Positions 21,430 to 25,079 of a DNA stretch of 64,000 bases are shown piece after piece; the first letter of the stretch is position 1, and each line of letters opens with the position of its first letter. The notes under the pieces are model-generated. The model saw nothing but the letters and a program-made list of their open reading frames with translations, was not told the origin of the DNA and ran no database searches. The DNA is from a virus. Location of the stretch: the IMG/VR virus record IMGVR_UViG_3300045988_148900, positions 1-64,000 of that record. The stretch is one strand, 5' to 3'. The translations under genes and the position numbers were made by a program.

Positions 21430-21461
21430 AAAAAAAGAGACCATGATGCCTACATGGTCTC
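21430..21461 (-). terminator. intrinsic terminator closing the tRNA island
   Basis: Perfect 9-bp stem GAGACCATG/CATGGTCTC with a 7-nt loop, followed by T7 on the minus strand. Confidence 0.75.
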
Positions 21462-21485
21462 CTGTCAGCTCCTGTCAGCTCCTGA
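21461..21485. repeat. short tandem repeat (cctgtcagct x2.5)
   Basis: Read directly from the sequence. Confidence 0.6.
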
Positions 21486-21712
21486 TCTCTGAAGCCCGAT
21501 GATATCCATATATCGACTGGAACATCTTTAGCCGTTGATATTAACCTAAATCAATCAAAAATAGGAGCATACAACATGAGCATGCCAGTCGTCCTGCGTT
21601 TTTATAACCTCCATGCAGGGAATGGGCGGAGGGGCATAGCATTAAGACTCCAGCAGACTATAAGCAGTAAACGCAGAAAAATAAAACCCACTGAAACCTT
21701 AGAACAAAAAAG

Positions 21713-21797
21713 CGGAGAGTGAGAGATTCGAACTCCCGGTACCTTTCGGTACGCCTGATTAGTAGGCAGGTGCTTTAGACCACTCAGCCAACTCTCC
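21713..21797 (-). tRNA. type II tRNA-Ser with unusual anticodon ACT (A34)
   Basis: Paralogous to the tRNA-Ser at 22493-22577 (same acceptor GGAGAGT and a long variable arm). Anticodon loop is CTACTAA, with a C31:T39 mismatch. Confidence 0.65.
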
Positions 21798-22245
21798 AAA
21801 CCTTAAAAAAGAGGGGATGGGATACCCACTTATACTCTACCCCTCATAGAGTCTGTCGCCTCCGCTCCGGCACTCGCCTATGGAAAAAGTCCGTGTTGCT
21901 GCCTCGGAAACAATTTGTTTGGCCTCACGACCCAGTTGGCTGGTGTCTGGACTTATCCGTTAAGGAGCCAAACTCAGATCCCCCACAGCCGGGGATATGG
22001 TAAGTTGTAGGAGAGTTGGACGCTACTCATCTCCGTAGCATAATCCCATTACGAAAGCCGCTACAGCATTCTCACAATTAAACTACTACAACATGGGCAC
22101 CGGAGAGCCCGAAGACTCTAACGAGAACACCAACAAGCAATTCGTGCGCACTCTTTGACTCAAATGTCCCCTCTACCGGCATGTATCTCAAAGAACAAAG
22201 ATATAACTACCACTCTATGAAACCATATATCAATGACTTTATAAG
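21798..22245 (-). ncRNA. ORF-free block, candidate structured RNA (family unknown)
   Basis: No ORF of 60 aa or more on either strand. Local hairpins are present. Strand assumed from context. Confidence 0.3.
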
Positions 22246-22455
22246 TCAAAACACATCTTCTTTCTGCAACTCGCGCCAAAATTCTAAATCACAAGGAACG
22301 TGAGTATATCTCGGAAGACACTGAGTTCTAAAATCAGTATGATTATATACTTTGACCTCTAAAGGATTCGACGCTTTTTCATTAAGCACCTCATACTGTT
22401 TACACTCAAAAATAAACTTCTTTCCCGGCTTTATATTTGCAAGCTCAATATACAT
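22246..22455 (-). CDS. hypothetical protein (69 aa) embedded in the tRNA island
   Basis: ORF track. ATG start and ordinary amino-acid composition. Confidence 0.5.
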   Translation of the reverse strand: MYIELANIKPGKKFIFECKQYEVLNEKASNPLEVKVYNHTDFRTQCLPRYTHVPCDLEFWRELQKEDVF

Positions 22456-22492
22456 ATTAAAACATTTAATAAAAAGTTTAAGTACTTATCGG

Positions 22493-22577
22493 CGGAGAGT
22501 GAGGGATTCGAACCCCCGGTACGTTGCCGTACAACAGTTTTCAAGACTGTCACCATAAACCACTCGGACAACTCTCC
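22493..22577 (-). tRNA. tRNA-Ser (TGA), type II
   Basis: Anticodon arm ACAGT-CTTGAAA-ACTGT, long variable arm, T arm CGGGGGTTCGAATCCCTC. Confidence 0.85.
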
Positions 22578-22633
22578 ATACATGTTATTACTTCTTGACA
22601 TACTCCCATGCGTAAACACACGGAATTCATGAC

Positions 22634-22840
22634 TCAAACATGACTGCCGCAAACCGCGGACTTACTATCACTCATCATAGCGTCCATGCCCGAACGCACA
22701 AGATTCAGCGCCGCATTCAAATCCCTATCATGGACCATACCACATGCGGGGCACGCCCAAGACCTATCCGTCAAATGCAACACCTTATTAACGTATCCAC
22801 AACCGCGAAGAGCAAAAGAATAAATAAAGTCCGTAGTCAT
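22634..22840 (-). pseudogene. tnpB: C-terminal remnant of a TnpB (zinc finger plus last RuvC motif only)
   Basis: WACPACGMVHDRDLNAALNL aligns with WACPQCGTIHDRDLTAATNI of the intact TnpB at 61780-62958. The N-terminal roughly 320 aa are absent. Confidence 0.6.
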
Positions 22841-22860
22841 CCCATGGCTAAAGCCATGGG
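22841..22860. repeat. perfect 8-bp palindromic hairpin CCCATGGC-TAAA-GCCATGGG
   Basis: Read directly. It abuts the first codon of the tnpB remnant. Confidence 0.7.
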
Positions 22861-22879
22861 ATTTCTACGAATAGTTTCG

Positions 22880-23320
22880 TAAACTCCAACAGGTGTGAGC
22901 GCACATTGAGGAATTTTCCGCCTGTCTTCAACATATTACTTCAATAACACCATATTTATCAGAACCTTGAGCTGAGGGATGGACTTGAACCATCCTAACC
23001 AACGCTACTCGTACTATTCCCTAAGGTCAACATTTCACGCCGCGCTTTGCCTGATAAGCTACTCAGCTTGTGCCTACACCTAAGTGTACGAGGGCAACGT
23101 CTCGGCAAGTATTTTGAGTGTGACTGCTCCACTACGGGTGAACGGTTCCTGGTTTACGAGTGGCTAAGGCTTGCGCACCGTTCAAGTGTCTCGTTTTAAT
23201 CGAACTGCTTTGTTTTACTGCTTAACATACGCCCCTGCGGGGTTCTAATACACAGTGGGAGAGAATTACGTACTTCTAAAGCCAGACCCTCATCGCACCT
23301 GCTCGATTAATAGCGGGAGA
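22880..23320 (-). ncRNA. ORF-free block, candidate structured RNA, containing a 99-nt tRNA-like module (22970-23068)
   Basis: No ORF of 60 aa or more on either strand. Composition is balanced (23041-23100: A13 C17 G15 T15). The T arm GGATGG-TTCAAGT-CCATCC is followed by CTCAGCT, which pairs with AGCTGAG. Confidence 0.3.
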
Positions 23321-23393
23321 AGGACTCGAACCTCCGACCTTCAGGTTATGAGCCTGACGAGCTACCAACTGCTCTACCCCGCGATATAACTCT
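23321..23393 (-). tRNA. tRNA-Met (CAT), initiator-like
   Basis: CGCGGGGTAGAGCAGTTGGTAGCTCGTCAGGCTCATAACCTGAAGG... closely parallels E. coli tRNA-fMet, including an unpaired 1:72 position (C:T). Confidence 0.8.
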
Positions 23394-23421
23394 AACACTA
23401 AATTTTAGTGTTGGCGAGGGC

Positions 23422-23527
23422 AGGGGGATTCGAACCGCATCCGTCACCCAAGCTCAAGGCTACCCTTTACAGGACCTTATAGACTTACTGGGGCACTACC
23501 AACTGTGCTACACCCTCATATTATTAT
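23422..23527 (-). tRNA. aberrant 106-nt tRNA-like element with encoded CCA and an extended, rod-like anticodon arm
   Basis: Acceptor GAGGGTG/TGCCCTC, a normal D arm GCAC-AGTTGGTA-GTGC, the T-loop sequence GGTTCGAATCC with a weak stem, and about 46 nt where a 17-nt anticodon arm is expected. Confidence 0.4.
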
Positions 23528-24115
23528 AAAGAACCTTGATATATTACAACGTTTCTCAGAAAGAACCCAAACCTCCAGCCAATGCCTTGAAATAGTCTTT
23601 CTATATAAAAAAGCCTCCGCTCCTATTTGCCTGTTCCCCGTTTTCCGTGACTTAGGAAACACCATGACGACTAAGACGACAAGATGTATTTTACGCGATC
23701 CTGTGAACGCCACCGAGGCGAGCTGCCGAGGCTCTGCCAAATATACGTAAAAAAAGTAGAAACTCTTATAGTCAGAGCAGTAGGTGAACAGATAAACCCA
23801 CCAATAAAGTAATTACTCCATAAAGCGGTCGTAAACCCTGAGCGAAGCGGATGCTAAACCCAGCAAGGACTAACCATATGTCTGTTACTACAACCGCACC
23901 AAAAGAACCTCTACTAAGCTAATTGCCGTGCTACTCCCGGACGCTCACTCCGGATATTCAGTCATAATAACGGTTCTATGGGCAGGATAAGAACCTCTGA
24001 CAACGCACCCAGTACCTACTCACTCTAAATTCAGTACTGCAACACATAAAACCAACCTCCTGCCATCTCAAAGGGTTGGACGCCCACTCGCATAGCAAGC
24101 CTGACGTGGAACGCG
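23528..24115 (-). ncRNA. ORF-poor block, candidate large structured RNA (family unknown)
   Basis: 588 nt between two tRNA genes. Only two mutually overlapping marginal ORFs occur. G+C is higher and less skewed than in coding DNA. Confidence 0.3.
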
Positions 24116-24199
24116 TACCGCCTCTGGGACTCGAACCCAGACGCCATCTCTGACACTACATTTTGAGTGTAGCCCGTCTACCAATTCCGACAAGGCGGC
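24116..24199 (-). tRNA. tRNA-Leu (CAA), type II
   Basis: Anticodon arm CTACA-CTCAAAA-TGTAG, T arm CTGGG-TTCGAGT-CCCAG, acceptor GCCGCCT/AGGCGGT. Confidence 0.85.
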
Positions 24200-24239
24200 A
24201 AATATAAAACAACATCTAAAGAACCAAATATCTAAAACA

Positions 24240-24476
24240 CTACTCACTATCCGGAGGCAGGAACTGAGCATAGAAAGATATCTTATCTGATAAAACCTTC
24301 CGAGACGCAACCGGAAACTTACCCGCTTTATTATCGCTAATGTATTCCAGAAGCGTATGCATCGCTTCATAATCTCGAAAAATCTCCATAGCATTGCAAG
24401 CCCCATGAAAATGGCTAATACTCGCCGTCTCTAAATAAGAAGTAAGCAAACTTACACAATCTCCGAAATTTCCCAT
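24240..24476 (-). CDS. hypothetical protein (about 78 aa)
   Basis: The ATG at 24474-24476 was chosen because the track's GTG start (24500) lies within 5 nt of the -7 box. Confidence 0.5.
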   Translation of the reverse strand: MGNFGDCVSLLTSYLETASISHFHGACNAMEIFRDYEAMHTLLEYISDNKAGKFPVASRKVLSDKISFYAQFLPPDSE

Positions 24477-24504
24477 CACAAACAGTAATCGTTTAACCAC
24501 AAGG

Positions 24505-24536
24505 CAAAGATAATAACATTAATTTTATTATCCAAA
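24505..24536 (-). promoter_or_regulatory. Bacteroidota-type promoter (TTTG-N20-TATCTTTG)
   Basis: Minus strand reads TTTGGATAATAAAATTAATGTTATTATCTTTG. Confidence 0.55.
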
Positions 24537-24559
24537 TAATTGTGACAAAAAAGCGATTT

Positions 24560-24919
24560 TTATTTCAGCAATCTAAAAGCCTCCTGTAACCCATCCGCCA
24601 AAGCGTCATCATAACAATCGAAAAAACGAACTCCAGAATAGCTTAAAAGACTACCATGATTGAAAAGCTCCCAATAAAAATAACCAGACGCATACCGACG
24701 ATCCATAGTAACGGCTACAAAAAGACCTGTAGTCACAAACACCATATGACGCAAAGAGTCCTGATAAGGAAGAGGGTAAACCGCAACCAAATCTGAATCC
24801 GGAAGCTTCTCGGAACCATAAGCAGAGTCACTCGGAATATCAGACGAAGAAACCTTCGACACCTCCAGAATGCCTAAAGCAACTGCTTCCTTAGCAACAT
24901 CAAGTGAAATACGATTCAT
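24560..24919 (-). CDS. hypothetical protein (119 aa)
   Basis: ORF track. It lies downstream of tRNA-Leu(TAA) in the same apparent transcription unit. Confidence 0.6.
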   Translation of the reverse strand: MNRISLDVAKEAVALGILEVSKVSSSDIPSDSAYGSEKLPDSDLVAVYPLPYQDSLRHMVFVTTGLFVAVTMDRRYASGYFYWELFNHGSLLSYSGVRFFDCYDDALADGLQEAFRLLK

Positions 24920-24940
24920 AACATGTTAGTTACAACACTG

Positions 24941-25026
24941 TACTCGGAGCGGGAATCGAACCCGCACGACCATTACTGATCACAGGATTTTAAGTCCGGC
25001 GCGGCTACCAATTACGCCATCCGAGC
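24941..25026 (-). tRNA. tRNA-Leu (TAA), type II
   Basis: Anticodon loop CTTAAAA, long variable arm, T arm GCGGG-TTCGATT-CCCGC. One mismatch in the anticodon stem. Confidence 0.8.
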
Positions 25027-25047
25027 ATATATTATTTAATTCCAATG

Positions 25048-25079
25048 CAAAGATAATAAGATTAATTTTATCATCCAAA
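25048..25079 (-). promoter_or_regulatory. Bacteroidota-type promoter (TTTG-N20-TATCTTTG) in front of tRNA-Leu(TAA)
   Basis: Minus strand reads TTTGGATGATAAAATTAATCTTATTATCTTTG. The -7 box lies about 22 nt upstream of the tRNA 5' end. Confidence 0.55.

What the first reader, a model, noticed from the sequence alone, without database searches (positions are those of the whole stretch)
21430..25079. 3.6-kb tRNA island with about 1.5 kb of ORF-free, compositionally balanced DNA: candidate large structured RNAs
Between a strong terminator (21430-21461) and a promoter (25048-25079) lie six tRNAs: Ser-ACT, Ser-TGA, Met, Leu-CAA and Leu-TAA, plus Asp just outside at 20642. The island also holds two aberrant tRNA-like elements, a tnpB remnant and only one convincing small CDS (22246-22455). 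Three blocks have no credible ORF on either strand: 21798-22245, 22880-23320 and 23528-24115. Elsewhere the plus strand is strongly A+C-rich (36181-36240: A24 C22 G8 T6), which normally produces long spurious plus-strand ORFs. In the blocks the skew collapses (23041-23100: A13 C17 G15 T15), as expected for base-paired RNA. Large ornate RNAs such as ROOL and GOLLD are known to sit next to tRNA clusters in phages. I cannot identify the family by eye.
Basis: partly seen in the sequence, partly recalled or inferred. Interest (0 to 1): 0.7.

Follow-up and report, generated by a model that had tools for sequence, protein, structure and literature searches.

The report
New structured RNAs in phage tRNA island
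The gene-free stretches between the transfer-RNA genes of this gut phage encode at least two large folded RNAs and two tRNA look-alikes that match no catalogued RNA family, so the phage seems to make an operon of RNAs of unknown function.

Summary
All features lie on the minus strand.

Block C holds a ~365-nt RNA, "element C" (24114-23749), directly 3' of tRNA-Leu(CAA). It is conserved in four phage clades whose helicases are only 45-57% identical. It has 12 scored helices and a kissing-loop pseudoknot, with strong covariation. In the 5' domain, 24 of 43 pairs show changes on both sides, against 2-7 in slid controls.

Block A (~22211-21805) is a second, unrelated ~400-nt RNA with GNRA and UUCG tetraloops and 13 covarying pairs. 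It occurs only in close relatives.

Block B is mixed. It holds a conserved 100-nt tRNA-like RNA (X2) and a decayed TnpB/IS605 end. A second tRNA-like RNA (X1) sits at 23517-23412.

No Rfam family matches (ROOL, GOLLD, group I introns, tmRNA, RNase P), even at E ≤ 10. No conserved ORF exists.

The compositional argument holds only for block B.

Function is unknown. My best reading is a tRNA-punctuated non-coding RNA operon.

The parts
25048..25079 (-). Bacteroidota-type promoter box (TTTG-N-TAnnTTTG) upstream of tRNA-Leu(UAA). It is one of about seven near-identical boxes in the window.
24940..25026 (-). tRNA-Leu(UAA)
24505..24536 (-). Second promoter box. It is the likely start of the ~3.1-kb unit: ORF86, tRNA-Leu(CAA), element C and onward to the terminator at 21435.
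   Evidence: that no further consensus promoter lies inside the unit is an inference
24115..24199 (-). tRNA-Leu(CAA). Its 3' end abuts element C in every relative of three clades.
23749..24114 (-). Element C, a ~365-nt structured RNA. It has a 5' hairpin, a 5' domain (24082-23915; helices P2-P8 plus the kissing-loop pseudoknot GGCAGGA/UCCUGCC) and a 3' domain (23917-23750; a 13-bp closing helix P9 followed by a U run, plus P10, P11 and P13).
   Evidence: alignments; RNAalifold; pair counts; covariance models R1 and R2; no Rfam hit
23518..23748 (-). Variable spacer with a terminator-like stem and U run near 23735-23600. It carries indels among close relatives and has no conserved ORF.
   Evidence: deletion and insertion in L002; read from the sequence
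23412..23517 (-). X1, a tRNA-like RNA. It has canonical acceptor, D and T arms and an encoded CCA, but 44 nt where a tRNA has 13 in the anticodon arm.
   Evidence: 24.8 bits, below the 29-bit threshold; ARAGORN with the intron option: a 77-nt tRNA plus a 29-nt insert; 96% conserved, with one compensatory C-G to U-A change in L002
23310..23384 (-). tRNA-Met(CAU)
22969..23132 (-). Conserved core of block B: a ~65-nt leader with two hairpins (23132-23069) plus X2 (23068-22969), a ~100-nt tRNA-like RNA with a non-canonical anticodon arm and a long extra arm.
   Evidence: acceptor AGCUGAG/CUCAGCU versus GGCUUAG/CUAAGCC, and T stem GGAUG/CAUCC versus GAGGG/CUCUC, give 4 compensatory pairs
22889..22925 (-). 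Small conserved hairpin: ACAGG...CCUGU here, AUAGG...CCUAU in L002.
   Evidence: read from the alignment
22578..22869 (-). Decayed IS605-family end. It comprises the palindrome 22869-22832, the last ~68 codons of TnpB (22840-22634) and the downstream right-end / omega-RNA region. It is an insertion relative to L002 and L003.
22491..22577 (-). tRNA-Ser(UGA)
22246..22455 (-). ORF69, a small CDS with no family match. It is an insertion specific to this phage that separates tRNA-Ser(UGA) from block A.
21805..22211 (-). Block A RNA, a ~400-nt structured RNA unrelated to element C. Its 5' half has covarying helices and UUCG/GUAA and GUGA/GCAA/GUAA tetraloops. Its 3' half is nearly invariant. It ends in a hairpin plus U6, 7 nt before tRNA-Ser(ACU).
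   Evidence: no Rfam hit
21712..21797 (-). tRNA-Ser(ACU)
21435..21711 (-). ORF-free ~250-nt tail ending in the strong intrinsic terminator (21463-21435).

Best explanation
The island is a non-coding RNA operon of a human-gut phage. The host is inferred to be a Bacteroidales bacterium.

Proposed mechanism:
- Transcription from the phage's own Bacteroidota-type promoters (25079-25048 and 24536-24505) runs to the terminator at 21435.
- The transcript carries five tRNAs, two tRNA-like RNAs (X1, X2) and two large, independently folding RNAs (element C, ~365 nt; block A RNA, ~400 nt).
- The tRNAs also act as processing punctuation. Host RNase P and 3'-end tRNA processing would cut on either side of each tRNA and free the RNAs between them.
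- Each large RNA starts right after a tRNA and ends in its own stem plus U run, which would protect its 3' end.
- The freed RNAs then act in trans during infection as folded particles, alone or with proteins, as is presumed for ROOL and GOLLD.
- The tRNA-like RNAs may be decoys or substrates for tRNA-directed enzymes.

What is shown: the RNAs are non-coding, are under selection for a specific multi-helix fold with a pseudoknot, are strand-specific, are tRNA-linked, and belong to no catalogued family.

What is inferred: co-transcription, release by tRNA-processing enzymes, and any function in trans.
For: Element C:
- It is one of the few segments of the island alignable between phage clades whose helicases are 57% identical.
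- In the full-length alignment, 71 pairs in 12 helices are 94.6% paired, against 40-50% when partners are slid. 21 pairs change on both sides, against 1-5 in the slid controls.
- A covariance model of the 5' domain independently finds a fourth, much more divergent clade: L041 at 42.8 bits (E = 1.7e-10) and L040 at 39.5 bits.
- In the resulting alignment, 24 of 43 pairs change on both sides, against 2-7 in slid controls. The covariation score is 0.518, against at most 0.08.
- The kissing-loop pseudoknot was not part of the model, yet it has three co-varying versions: GGCAGG/CCUGCC, GGUAGG/CCUACC and GAUAGG/CCUAUC.
- About 14% of paired cells are G·U (my tally). This fixes the RNA strand as the minus strand, the same as the tRNAs.
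- It has no conserved ORF, frame-breaking indels and no codon-position bias.
- In all four clades it begins directly 3' of a tRNA: Leu-CAA in three clades and Arg-CCG in L040/L041.

Block A:
- 97.6% of cells are paired, against about 47% when slid. 13 pairs change on both sides, against 1-4.
- One whole hairpin is swapped for a different sequence that still pairs, and the tetraloops vary within GNRA.
- In L003 and L002 it starts right after tRNA-Ser(UGA).

X1 and X2: compensatory changes occur in the acceptor, T and anticodon-base stems.

Promoters and terminator.

Context precedent: ROOL and GOLLD lie near tRNA islands of phages (PMC12286853, PMC5737381).
Against: - No expression data exist for any of these RNAs.
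- Single-sequence folding energies are not better than shuffles for A and C.
- Sequence diversity is limited. Element C has about 15 distinct sequences in four clades, and block A has five sequences at about 90% identity, so many changes are inherited together.
- The structures were partly derived from the same sequences used to count pairs, and alignment A10 is fitted to the model.
- The 3' half of block A and the core of the 3' domain of element C are invariant, so those helices are untested.
- The 3'-domain model R2 did not find L040/L041 at E ≤ 10; I ran only the default filters.
- Block A is dispensable in nature: it is truncated in L002 and absent in L004.
- More distant relatives of the phage have no island at all.
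- No partner protein was found in the 64-kb window.
Confidence: 0.8

Rival explanations
1. The blocks are decayed protein-coding sequence or mobile-element debris (IS605/TnpB ends, homing-endonuclease remnants) with no function of their own.
For: - Window 22840-22578 is a TnpB C-terminal remnant. It is 56% identical to the intact TnpB at 61780-62958.
- Relatives carry a frameshifted TnpB (L005) or an intact one (L007) inside the island.
- The island varies greatly in content among 98-99%-identical phages.
- Block A can be lost (L004).
Against: - Elements C and A have no Pfam or PHROG-detectable frame and no conserved ORF, and their indels break frames.
- Their substitutions preserve base pairs rather than codons.
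- Element C is more alignable across clades than the neighbouring genes.
Confidence: 0.08
2. They are divergent members of a known large-RNA family that the Rfam models miss: ROOL, GOLLD, a group I intron, RNase P RNA or tmRNA.
For: - The context matches ROOL and GOLLD, which lie near phage tRNA islands (PMC12286853, PMC5737381).
- The Rfam group I model has limited sensitivity (my own knowledge).
- Short motifs recall group I elements: AUGGUUAGUCC and GACUAUAAG could pair as UAGUC/GACUA (read).
- ARAGORN at an 80% threshold proposes a permuted tmRNA across 23939-23413.
Against: - No Rfam hit at E ≤ 10, even on slices of 430-810 nt where the filters are laxer.
- Element C is about 365 nt, against 581 nt for ROOL and over 800 nt for many GOLLD RNAs.
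- tRNA-Leu(CAA) is complete, so no gene is interrupted and there are no exons to splice.
- The group-I-like motifs occur in the wrong order and are invariant, so the pairing cannot be tested.
- The proposed tmRNA tag lies in a stretch that is deleted or rewritten in L002.
Confidence: 0.07
3. They are cis-acting spacer or leader structures, with no role as free RNAs. They would only organise processing, termination or stability of the tRNA precursor, or regulate the neighbouring small ORFs.
For: - Both large RNAs are flanked by tRNAs and end in a stem plus U run.
- The closing helix P9 plus U run of element C scores like ordinary phage terminators.
- The island has only two or three promoters for many products.
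Against: - A multi-helix fold with a conserved kissing-loop pseudoknot and 24-nt invariant single-stranded blocks, kept across four clades, is far more than termination or spacing needs.
- The L040/L041 clade packs most of its tRNAs about 95-245 nt apart without such elements.
Confidence: 0.1
4. They are guide or template RNAs for a phage protein: TnpB omega RNA, IscB/HEARO, IS110 bridge RNA, or a template for a reverse transcriptase as in the UG27 ncRNA arrays of Bacteroidota phages.
For: - The phage carries several TnpB copies.
- TnpB elements repeatedly sit next to element C or next to tRNAs.
- UG27 arrays were recently reported in Bacteroidota phages (bioRxiv 10.64898/2026.09.22.753630).
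Against: - No reverse transcriptase, IscB, IS110 or Cas-like gene is in the window.
- Models R1 and R2 find no copy beside the intact TnpB.
- Element C is present in relatives with no TnpB nearby (L003, L006).
- The units are not repeats of one another.
Confidence: 0.04

Closest known systems
ROOL and GOLLD RNAs (large ornate RNAs of phages and prophages)
   Same: They are large, multi-domain, pseudoknotted non-coding RNAs. They are encoded in phages at or inside tRNA islands, sometimes directly downstream of a tRNA. No protein partner or function is known (PMC12286853, PMC5737381).
   Different: - There is no match to either Rfam model at E ≤ 10.
- These RNAs are shorter, at about 365 and 400 nt, against 581 nt for ROOL and over 800 nt for many GOLLD RNAs.
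- The helix layout differs.
- Distribution is narrow, limited to one lineage of gut phages.
- Oligomerisation is untested.
Stable 'species 1' and 'species 2' RNAs of the phage T4 tRNA gene cluster (my own knowledge, not tested here)
   Same: They are extra stable RNAs of unknown function, encoded among phage tRNA genes, co-transcribed with them and released by the tRNA-processing machinery.
   Different: The T4 RNAs are much smaller, at roughly 120-140 nt. Sequence relatedness was not examined. Their host and phage lineage differ.
tRNA-linked non-coding RNAs released by tRNA processing, such as bacterial tRNA 3' external transcribed spacers and MALAT1-mascRNA (my own knowledge)
   Same: A tRNA or tRNA-like fold next to another RNA supplies the cleavage site that defines that RNA's end.
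   Different: Here the partner is a large pseudoknotted RNA, not a short spacer or sponge. Processing is inferred, not shown.
Candidate structured RNAs and tRNA-like structures mined from IMG/VR (Fremin et al. 2023, PMC10690425)
   Same: The data source and type of evidence are the same: covariation in viral intergenic regions. That study also reports many tRNA-like candidates.
   Different: I could not check whether these loci are among the 10,006 candidates, because no supplementary files are held. That catalogue assigns no functions.
IS200/IS605 TnpB elements with their omega RNA
   Same: Window 22840-22578 is the 3' end of such an element.
   Different: This accounts for only about 260 nt of block B. 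Elements C and A, and X1 and X2, are unrelated to it.

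Membership tests
ROOL RNA | Match to the Rfam ROOL covariance model | tested here: not met
   No hit at the gathering score or at E ≤ 10 on the whole window, on 5 kb, or on short slices.
ROOL RNA | [quoted passage not shown] | tested here: not met
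   Element C is about 365 nt with 12 scored helices and one supported pseudoknot. Block A is about 400 nt.
ROOL / GOLLD | Located in phages or prophages near tRNA genes | tested here: met
   Both RNAs lie inside the tRNA island and directly 3' of a tRNA.
ROOL / GOLLD | Homo-oligomeric RNA-only cage (PMC12286853) | not testable with these tools
   This needs in vitro transcription followed by cryo-EM or SEC-MALS.
GOLLD RNA | Match to the Rfam GOLLD model, including the universally conserved 3' domain | tested here: not met
   No hit at E ≤ 10.
Group I intron | Match to the Rfam group I intron model | tested here: not met
   No hit at E ≤ 10. The model's sensitivity is limited (my own knowledge).
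Group I intron | Interrupts a gene, with exons that join into an intact product | tested here: not met
   tRNA-Leu(CAA) and all other tRNAs are complete without it. No split ORF flanks either RNA.
tmRNA | tRNA-like domain plus a conserved tag reading frame, detected by ARAGORN or Rfam | tested here: not met
   None at default settings. The call at the 80% threshold has a tag in a stretch that is deleted or rewritten in L002.
Canonical tRNA (for X1 and X2) | Rfam tRNA score of at least 29 bits and a 7-nt anticodon loop with U33 | tested here: not met
   X1 scores 24.8 bits and has 44 nt in place of 13. X2 gets no Rfam hit and needs ARAGORN at an 80% threshold, which then reports a 4-base 'anticodon'.
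Canonical tRNA (for X1 and X2) | Acceptor, D and T arms maintained by selection | tested here: met
   Compensatory changes occur in the acceptor and T stems of X2 and in the anticodon-stem base of X1.
TnpB omega RNA / IS605 right end | Overlaps and follows the 3' end of a tnpB gene | tested here: met
   This holds only for 22840-22578. It does not hold for elements C or A, or for X1 or X2.
UG27-type ncRNA array | Array of repeated structured units next to a UG27 reverse transcriptase and accessory ORFs | tested here: not met
   No reverse transcriptase is in the window. The units are not paralogous.

The most novel reading that the evidence does not exclude
Element C, and separately the block A RNA, are founding members of new classes of large phage RNAs that act as free, autonomously folded particles during infection. 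They could be ribozymes, or RNA-only assemblies or scaffolds in the manner of ROOL and GOLLD. They would be the first of this kind described for phages of Bacteroidales. X1 and X2 would be tRNA mimics that engage host tRNA enzymes or tRNA-targeting defences.
Probability: 0.3. Interest if true: 0.8.

Novelty: new variant of a known kind. Interest (0 to 1): 0.68.

Why it matters
Few large, intricately folded bacterial and phage RNAs are known, and those characterised so far have had notable functions or structures: ribozymes, and most recently the ROOL and GOLLD RNA cages. ROOL and GOLLD are both tied to phage tRNA islands, and nobody knows why.

Here one operon of a human-gut phage holds two further large RNAs unrelated to ROOL, GOLLD or each other, plus two tRNA mimics, in the same genomic setting. 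This suggests that phage tRNA islands are a more general home for functional RNAs.

It also offers compact targets of about 365-400 nt, with a defined pseudoknot, for structure work and for genetics. The natural variants are useful comparisons: block A is present, truncated or absent in 98-99%-identical phages.

Tried and rejected
- **Rfam.** I ran the gathering threshold on the window, and E ≤ 10 on 5 kb and on three short slices. Only tRNAs and chance hits came back.
- **Single-sequence folding.** The z-scores are not informative.
- **GenBank phages.** blastn hits are almost all to tRNAs, apart from one unannotated 4.5-kb faecal scaffold (L001). A tblastn of the 1224-aa protein found nothing.
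- **Exact and gapped DNA patterns for element C and block A in IMG/VR.** These returned only the same phage lineage. A looser gapped pattern gave six extra loci that turned out to be a conserved protein-coding region, so they are chance matches.
- **Helicase-alignment scan of IMG/VR.** It returned the same 10 loci.
- **Paralogy of A and C.** nhmmer and the covariance models find none.
- **3'-domain model R2 on L040/L041.** No hit at E ≤ 10, so the 3' half of that clade's RNA could not be aligned.
- **Group-I-like pairing UAGUC/GACUA, and CCUUG/CAGGG.** Both are possible on paper, but every base is invariant, and the first is not kept in L041, so I did not claim them.
- **Permuted tmRNA call from relaxed ARAGORN.** Rejected because the tag is not conserved.
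- **Partner proteins.** No reverse transcriptase, Cas, IscB, Ro or RNA ligase is in the window.
- **Complement of the invariant loop elsewhere in the window.** The only other match is a same-sense, 3-mismatch one at 17335-17352, which I judged to be chance.
- **Supplement of Fremin et al. 2023.** It is not held, so overlap with their catalogue is unknown.

Full report
**Setting.** Every credible gene in the window is on the minus strand. The window encodes a family A DNA polymerase, DnaB-like and SNF2 helicases, a Gp23-like major capsid protein, a prohead protease, several DNA methyltransferases, a GIY-YIG/NUMOD homing endonuclease and several TnpB copies. It is therefore a large tailed phage; related contigs are 83-145 kb.

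The Bacteroidota promoter consensus TTTG-N17-23-TAnnTTTG occurs 15 times, all on the minus strand, against 3.9 expected. All relatives whose source is stated come from gut metagenomes. One sits in a Muribaculaceae MAG. The host is therefore probably a Bacteroidales bacterium, which is an inference.

**Checking the observation.**
- ARAGORN and Rfam agree on six minus-strand tRNAs at the stated places.
- The terminator (21463-21435) and the promoter box (25079-25048) are real consensus matches.
- A second identical box lies at 24536-24505 and a third at 21426-21395.
- The island therefore reads as one short unit (tRNA-Leu(UAA) and ORF119) followed by one unit of about 3.1 kb.
- The TnpB remnant is confirmed.
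- The three blocks contain only short ORFs that are not conserved.
- The compositional claim is only partly right. Block B is unusually balanced (A+C 0.506, 1.8th percentile). Block A is marginal, and block C is at the window median.
- Minimum-free-energy z-scores are unremarkable.

**Relatives.** The DnaB-like helicase retrieved ten IMG/VR loci: three at 98-99% amino-acid identity and seven at 57%. blastn of the island against them aligned only four kinds of segment in the distant group: the tRNAs, part of one ORF, the TnpB remnant, and a segment of about 370 nt comprising tRNA-Leu(CAA) and what follows it. Among the close relatives the island is a hotspot of rearrangement.
- tRNA-Phe is present in L002 and L003 but absent here.
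- Block A is full-length in L003 and L022, truncated in L002, and deleted in L004 by a Ser-UGA/Ser-ACU recombination.
- The TnpB remnant and ORF69 are insertions.

**Element C (24114-23749).** The alignment shows invariant blocks separated by variable stretches: GGGUGCGUUG, GAGUAGCACG, GGUUCUUUUG, ACAUAUGGUUAGUCCUUGCUGGGU and CUAUAAG. RNAalifold predicted 85 pairs, 25 of them with compensatory double changes, from only eight sequences.

A metagenome scan and nhmmer raised the set to 15 distinct sequences. A scan of species-representative genomes added one more, in a Muribaculaceae MAG.

- On a hand-curated structure of 71 pairs in 12 helices, 94.6% of cells pair, against 40-50% in slid controls. 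21 pairs change on both sides, against 1-5.
- A 177-position covariance model of the 5' domain found no second copy in the window. It did find a full-length match in L041 (42.8 bits, E = 1.7e-10) and in L040 (39.5 bits), a clade whose helicase is 45% identical. nhmmer had missed these.
- In that clade the RNA follows tRNA-Arg(CCG) and precedes tRNA-Leu(UAA).
- With this clade included, 24 of 43 pairs of the 5' domain change on both sides, against 2-7 in slid controls. The covariation score is 0.518, against at most 0.08.
- The loop-loop pseudoknot was not in the model, yet it exists in three mutually compensating versions.
- About 14% of paired cells are G·U, which only work on the minus-strand transcript.
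- There is no conserved ORF. Indels are 1, 2, 4, 8 and 13 nt, and mismatches by position modulo 3 are 46/46/43.
- The 3' domain is closed by a 13-bp helix followed by six U's. The 3'-domain model matches ordinary terminator hairpins through that helix alone, so this helix probably doubles as the RNA's terminator and 3' cap.

**Block A RNA (~22211-21805).** It is present only in the close group.
- One hairpin is replaced wholesale in L022 by a different sequence that still pairs: CUGUAGC...GCUACGG becomes CCACG...CGUGG.
- One tetraloop varies as GUGA, GCAA and GUAA, with a G·U to A-U change beside it. Another is UUCG in some sequences and GUAA in others.
- On the RNAalifold structure, 13 of 99 pairs change on both sides, against 1-4 in slid controls, all in the 5' half. 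The 3' half is nearly invariant.
- In L003 and L002 it begins right after tRNA-Ser(UGA). Here ORF69 has been inserted between them.
- It ends in a hairpin plus U6, 7 nt before tRNA-Ser(ACU).
- Support is moderate, because there are only five sequences and the structure was derived from them.

**Block B.** It has four parts:
- a window-specific stretch of about 180 nt (23309-23133) of unknown nature;
- a conserved core of about 165 nt (23132-22969), comprising a leader with two hairpins and the tRNA-like X2;
- a small conserved hairpin (22925-22889);
- the IS605/TnpB end (22869-22578).

The acceptor and T stems of X2 differ from those of the relatives by four compensatory pairs, so X2 is under selection as a tRNA-shaped RNA. 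Its anticodon arm is non-canonical and it has a long extra arm.

X1 (23517-23412) has textbook acceptor, D and T arms and an encoded CCA, but its anticodon arm is about 30 nt too long. It is 96% conserved, and one compensatory change lies at the base of that arm.

**What it is not.**
- No Rfam family reaches E ≤ 10 on any slice. This includes ROOL, GOLLD, HEARO, group I and II introns, RNase P and tmRNA.
- No gene is interrupted, so there is nothing for an intron to splice.
- A permuted-tmRNA call at a relaxed ARAGORN threshold rests on a tag that relatives delete.
- The window has no reverse transcriptase, IscB, IS110 or Cas gene.
- The covariance models find nothing beside the intact TnpB.

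**How it probably works.**
- *Shown:* these are four non-coding elements under selection for specific folds, on the tRNA strand, each immediately next to tRNAs. Both large RNAs carry their own 3' stem and U run.
- *Inferred:* they are co-transcribed with the tRNAs from the phage promoters. They are cut free by the enzymes that mature the tRNAs and persist as folded particles that act in trans. What they act on is unknown.
- The closest analogues in setting and scale are ROOL and GOLLD. These are also of unknown function, lie near phage tRNA islands, and form RNA-only cages (PMC12286853, PMC5737381). The stable extra RNAs of the T4 tRNA cluster are a second analogue (my own knowledge).
- Membership in ROOL or GOLLD was tested and not met. 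The resemblance is in context and kind only.

**Distribution and limits.**
- Element C is confined to one lineage of gut phages, in four clades.
- Helicase relatives from other contigs at 40-50% identity have SNF2 and DnaB helicase genes side by side with no tRNA island.
- Diversity is therefore modest and many substitutions are shared by descent. The slid-partner controls address this only in part.
- Expression, processing and function are untested.

**Verdict.** This is a real feature.

Noticed in passing
window 61780-62958 (-): An intact 392-aa TnpB with HTH, OrfB_IS605 and TNB domains. It is 56% identical over the C-terminus to the remnant in the island. Pfam also finds OrfB_IS605 or TNB domains in two or three other ORFs of the window that I did not locate.
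   Followed up: partly
window 55872-57161 (-), next to 57275-58780: A 429-aa GIY-YIG/NUMOD homing endonuclease lies directly downstream of the Gp23-like major capsid gene. GC skew is unusually flat at 57001-59000. I did not check for an intron or a free-standing homing cassette.
   Followed up: no
window 8915-11680 (-); L042, L046, L048: The family A DNA polymerase ORF matches the Pfam domain only up to position 304 of 381. In relatives the polymerase is split into two ORFs, sometimes with a methyltransferase or another ORF between them. This suggests a mobile insertion or a split gene.
   Followed up: no
window 19-50, 7054-7084, 21395-21426, 24505-24536, 25048-25079, 27438-27469, 54155-54186 (-): Seven near-identical 31-32-nt promoter boxes of the form TTTGGAnnATnnAnTTAAT...TAnnTTTG. 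They look like one class of phage promoter of the Bacteroidota type.
   Followed up: partly
window 21712-21797; L005-L010, L040, L041: tRNA-Ser with the unusual anticodon ACU is conserved in all clades that have the island, including the clade at 45% helicase identity. An unmodified A34 is rare in bacterial tRNAs (my own knowledge).
   Followed up: no
L005:2657-2743, L010:5623-5709: In these relatives the tRNA-Leu(UAA) homologue has an 8-nt anticodon loop, which ARAGORN reports as anticodon 'taag'. A frameshifted TnpB pseudogene ends right at its 5' end.
   Followed up: no
L007:~5700-6880; L039:6417-6546: An intact TnpB in L007 and a TnpB remnant in L039 are inserted immediately downstream of element C. 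TnpB elements repeatedly land at the edges of RNA genes in this island.
   Followed up: partly
L005:~3560-3700 and the same place in L006 and L008: The distant clade has its own long-range hairpin of about 130 nt, followed by a T run, after element C (GUGAAGACGGCAC...GUGCUGUCUUCAC). A T-arm-like GGGGUUCGAUUCC motif lies before tRNA-Ser(ACU). These may be further lineage-specific RNAs.
   Followed up: no
window 22832-22869: A near-perfect 18-nt palindrome with a 2-nt spacer (CGTAGTCATCCCATGGCT/AGCCATGGGATTTCTACG, plus strand) lies exactly at the upstream edge of the TnpB remnant. It could be a deletion junction or a transposon-end hairpin.
   Followed up: no
window 23133-23309 (-): About 180 nt downstream of tRNA-Met are unique to this phage. 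Relatives have a different sequence of about 95 nt there. There is no ORF and no family match, and its nature is unknown.
   Followed up: no
window 17335-17352; L005:16410-16493: These are same-sense near-copies of the invariant GGUUAGUCCUUGCUGGGU block of element C. The window copy lies inside the 1224-aa ORF (3 mismatches). The L005 one is a weak R2 hit (16.2 bits, E = 0.05). They are probably chance.
   Followed up: partly
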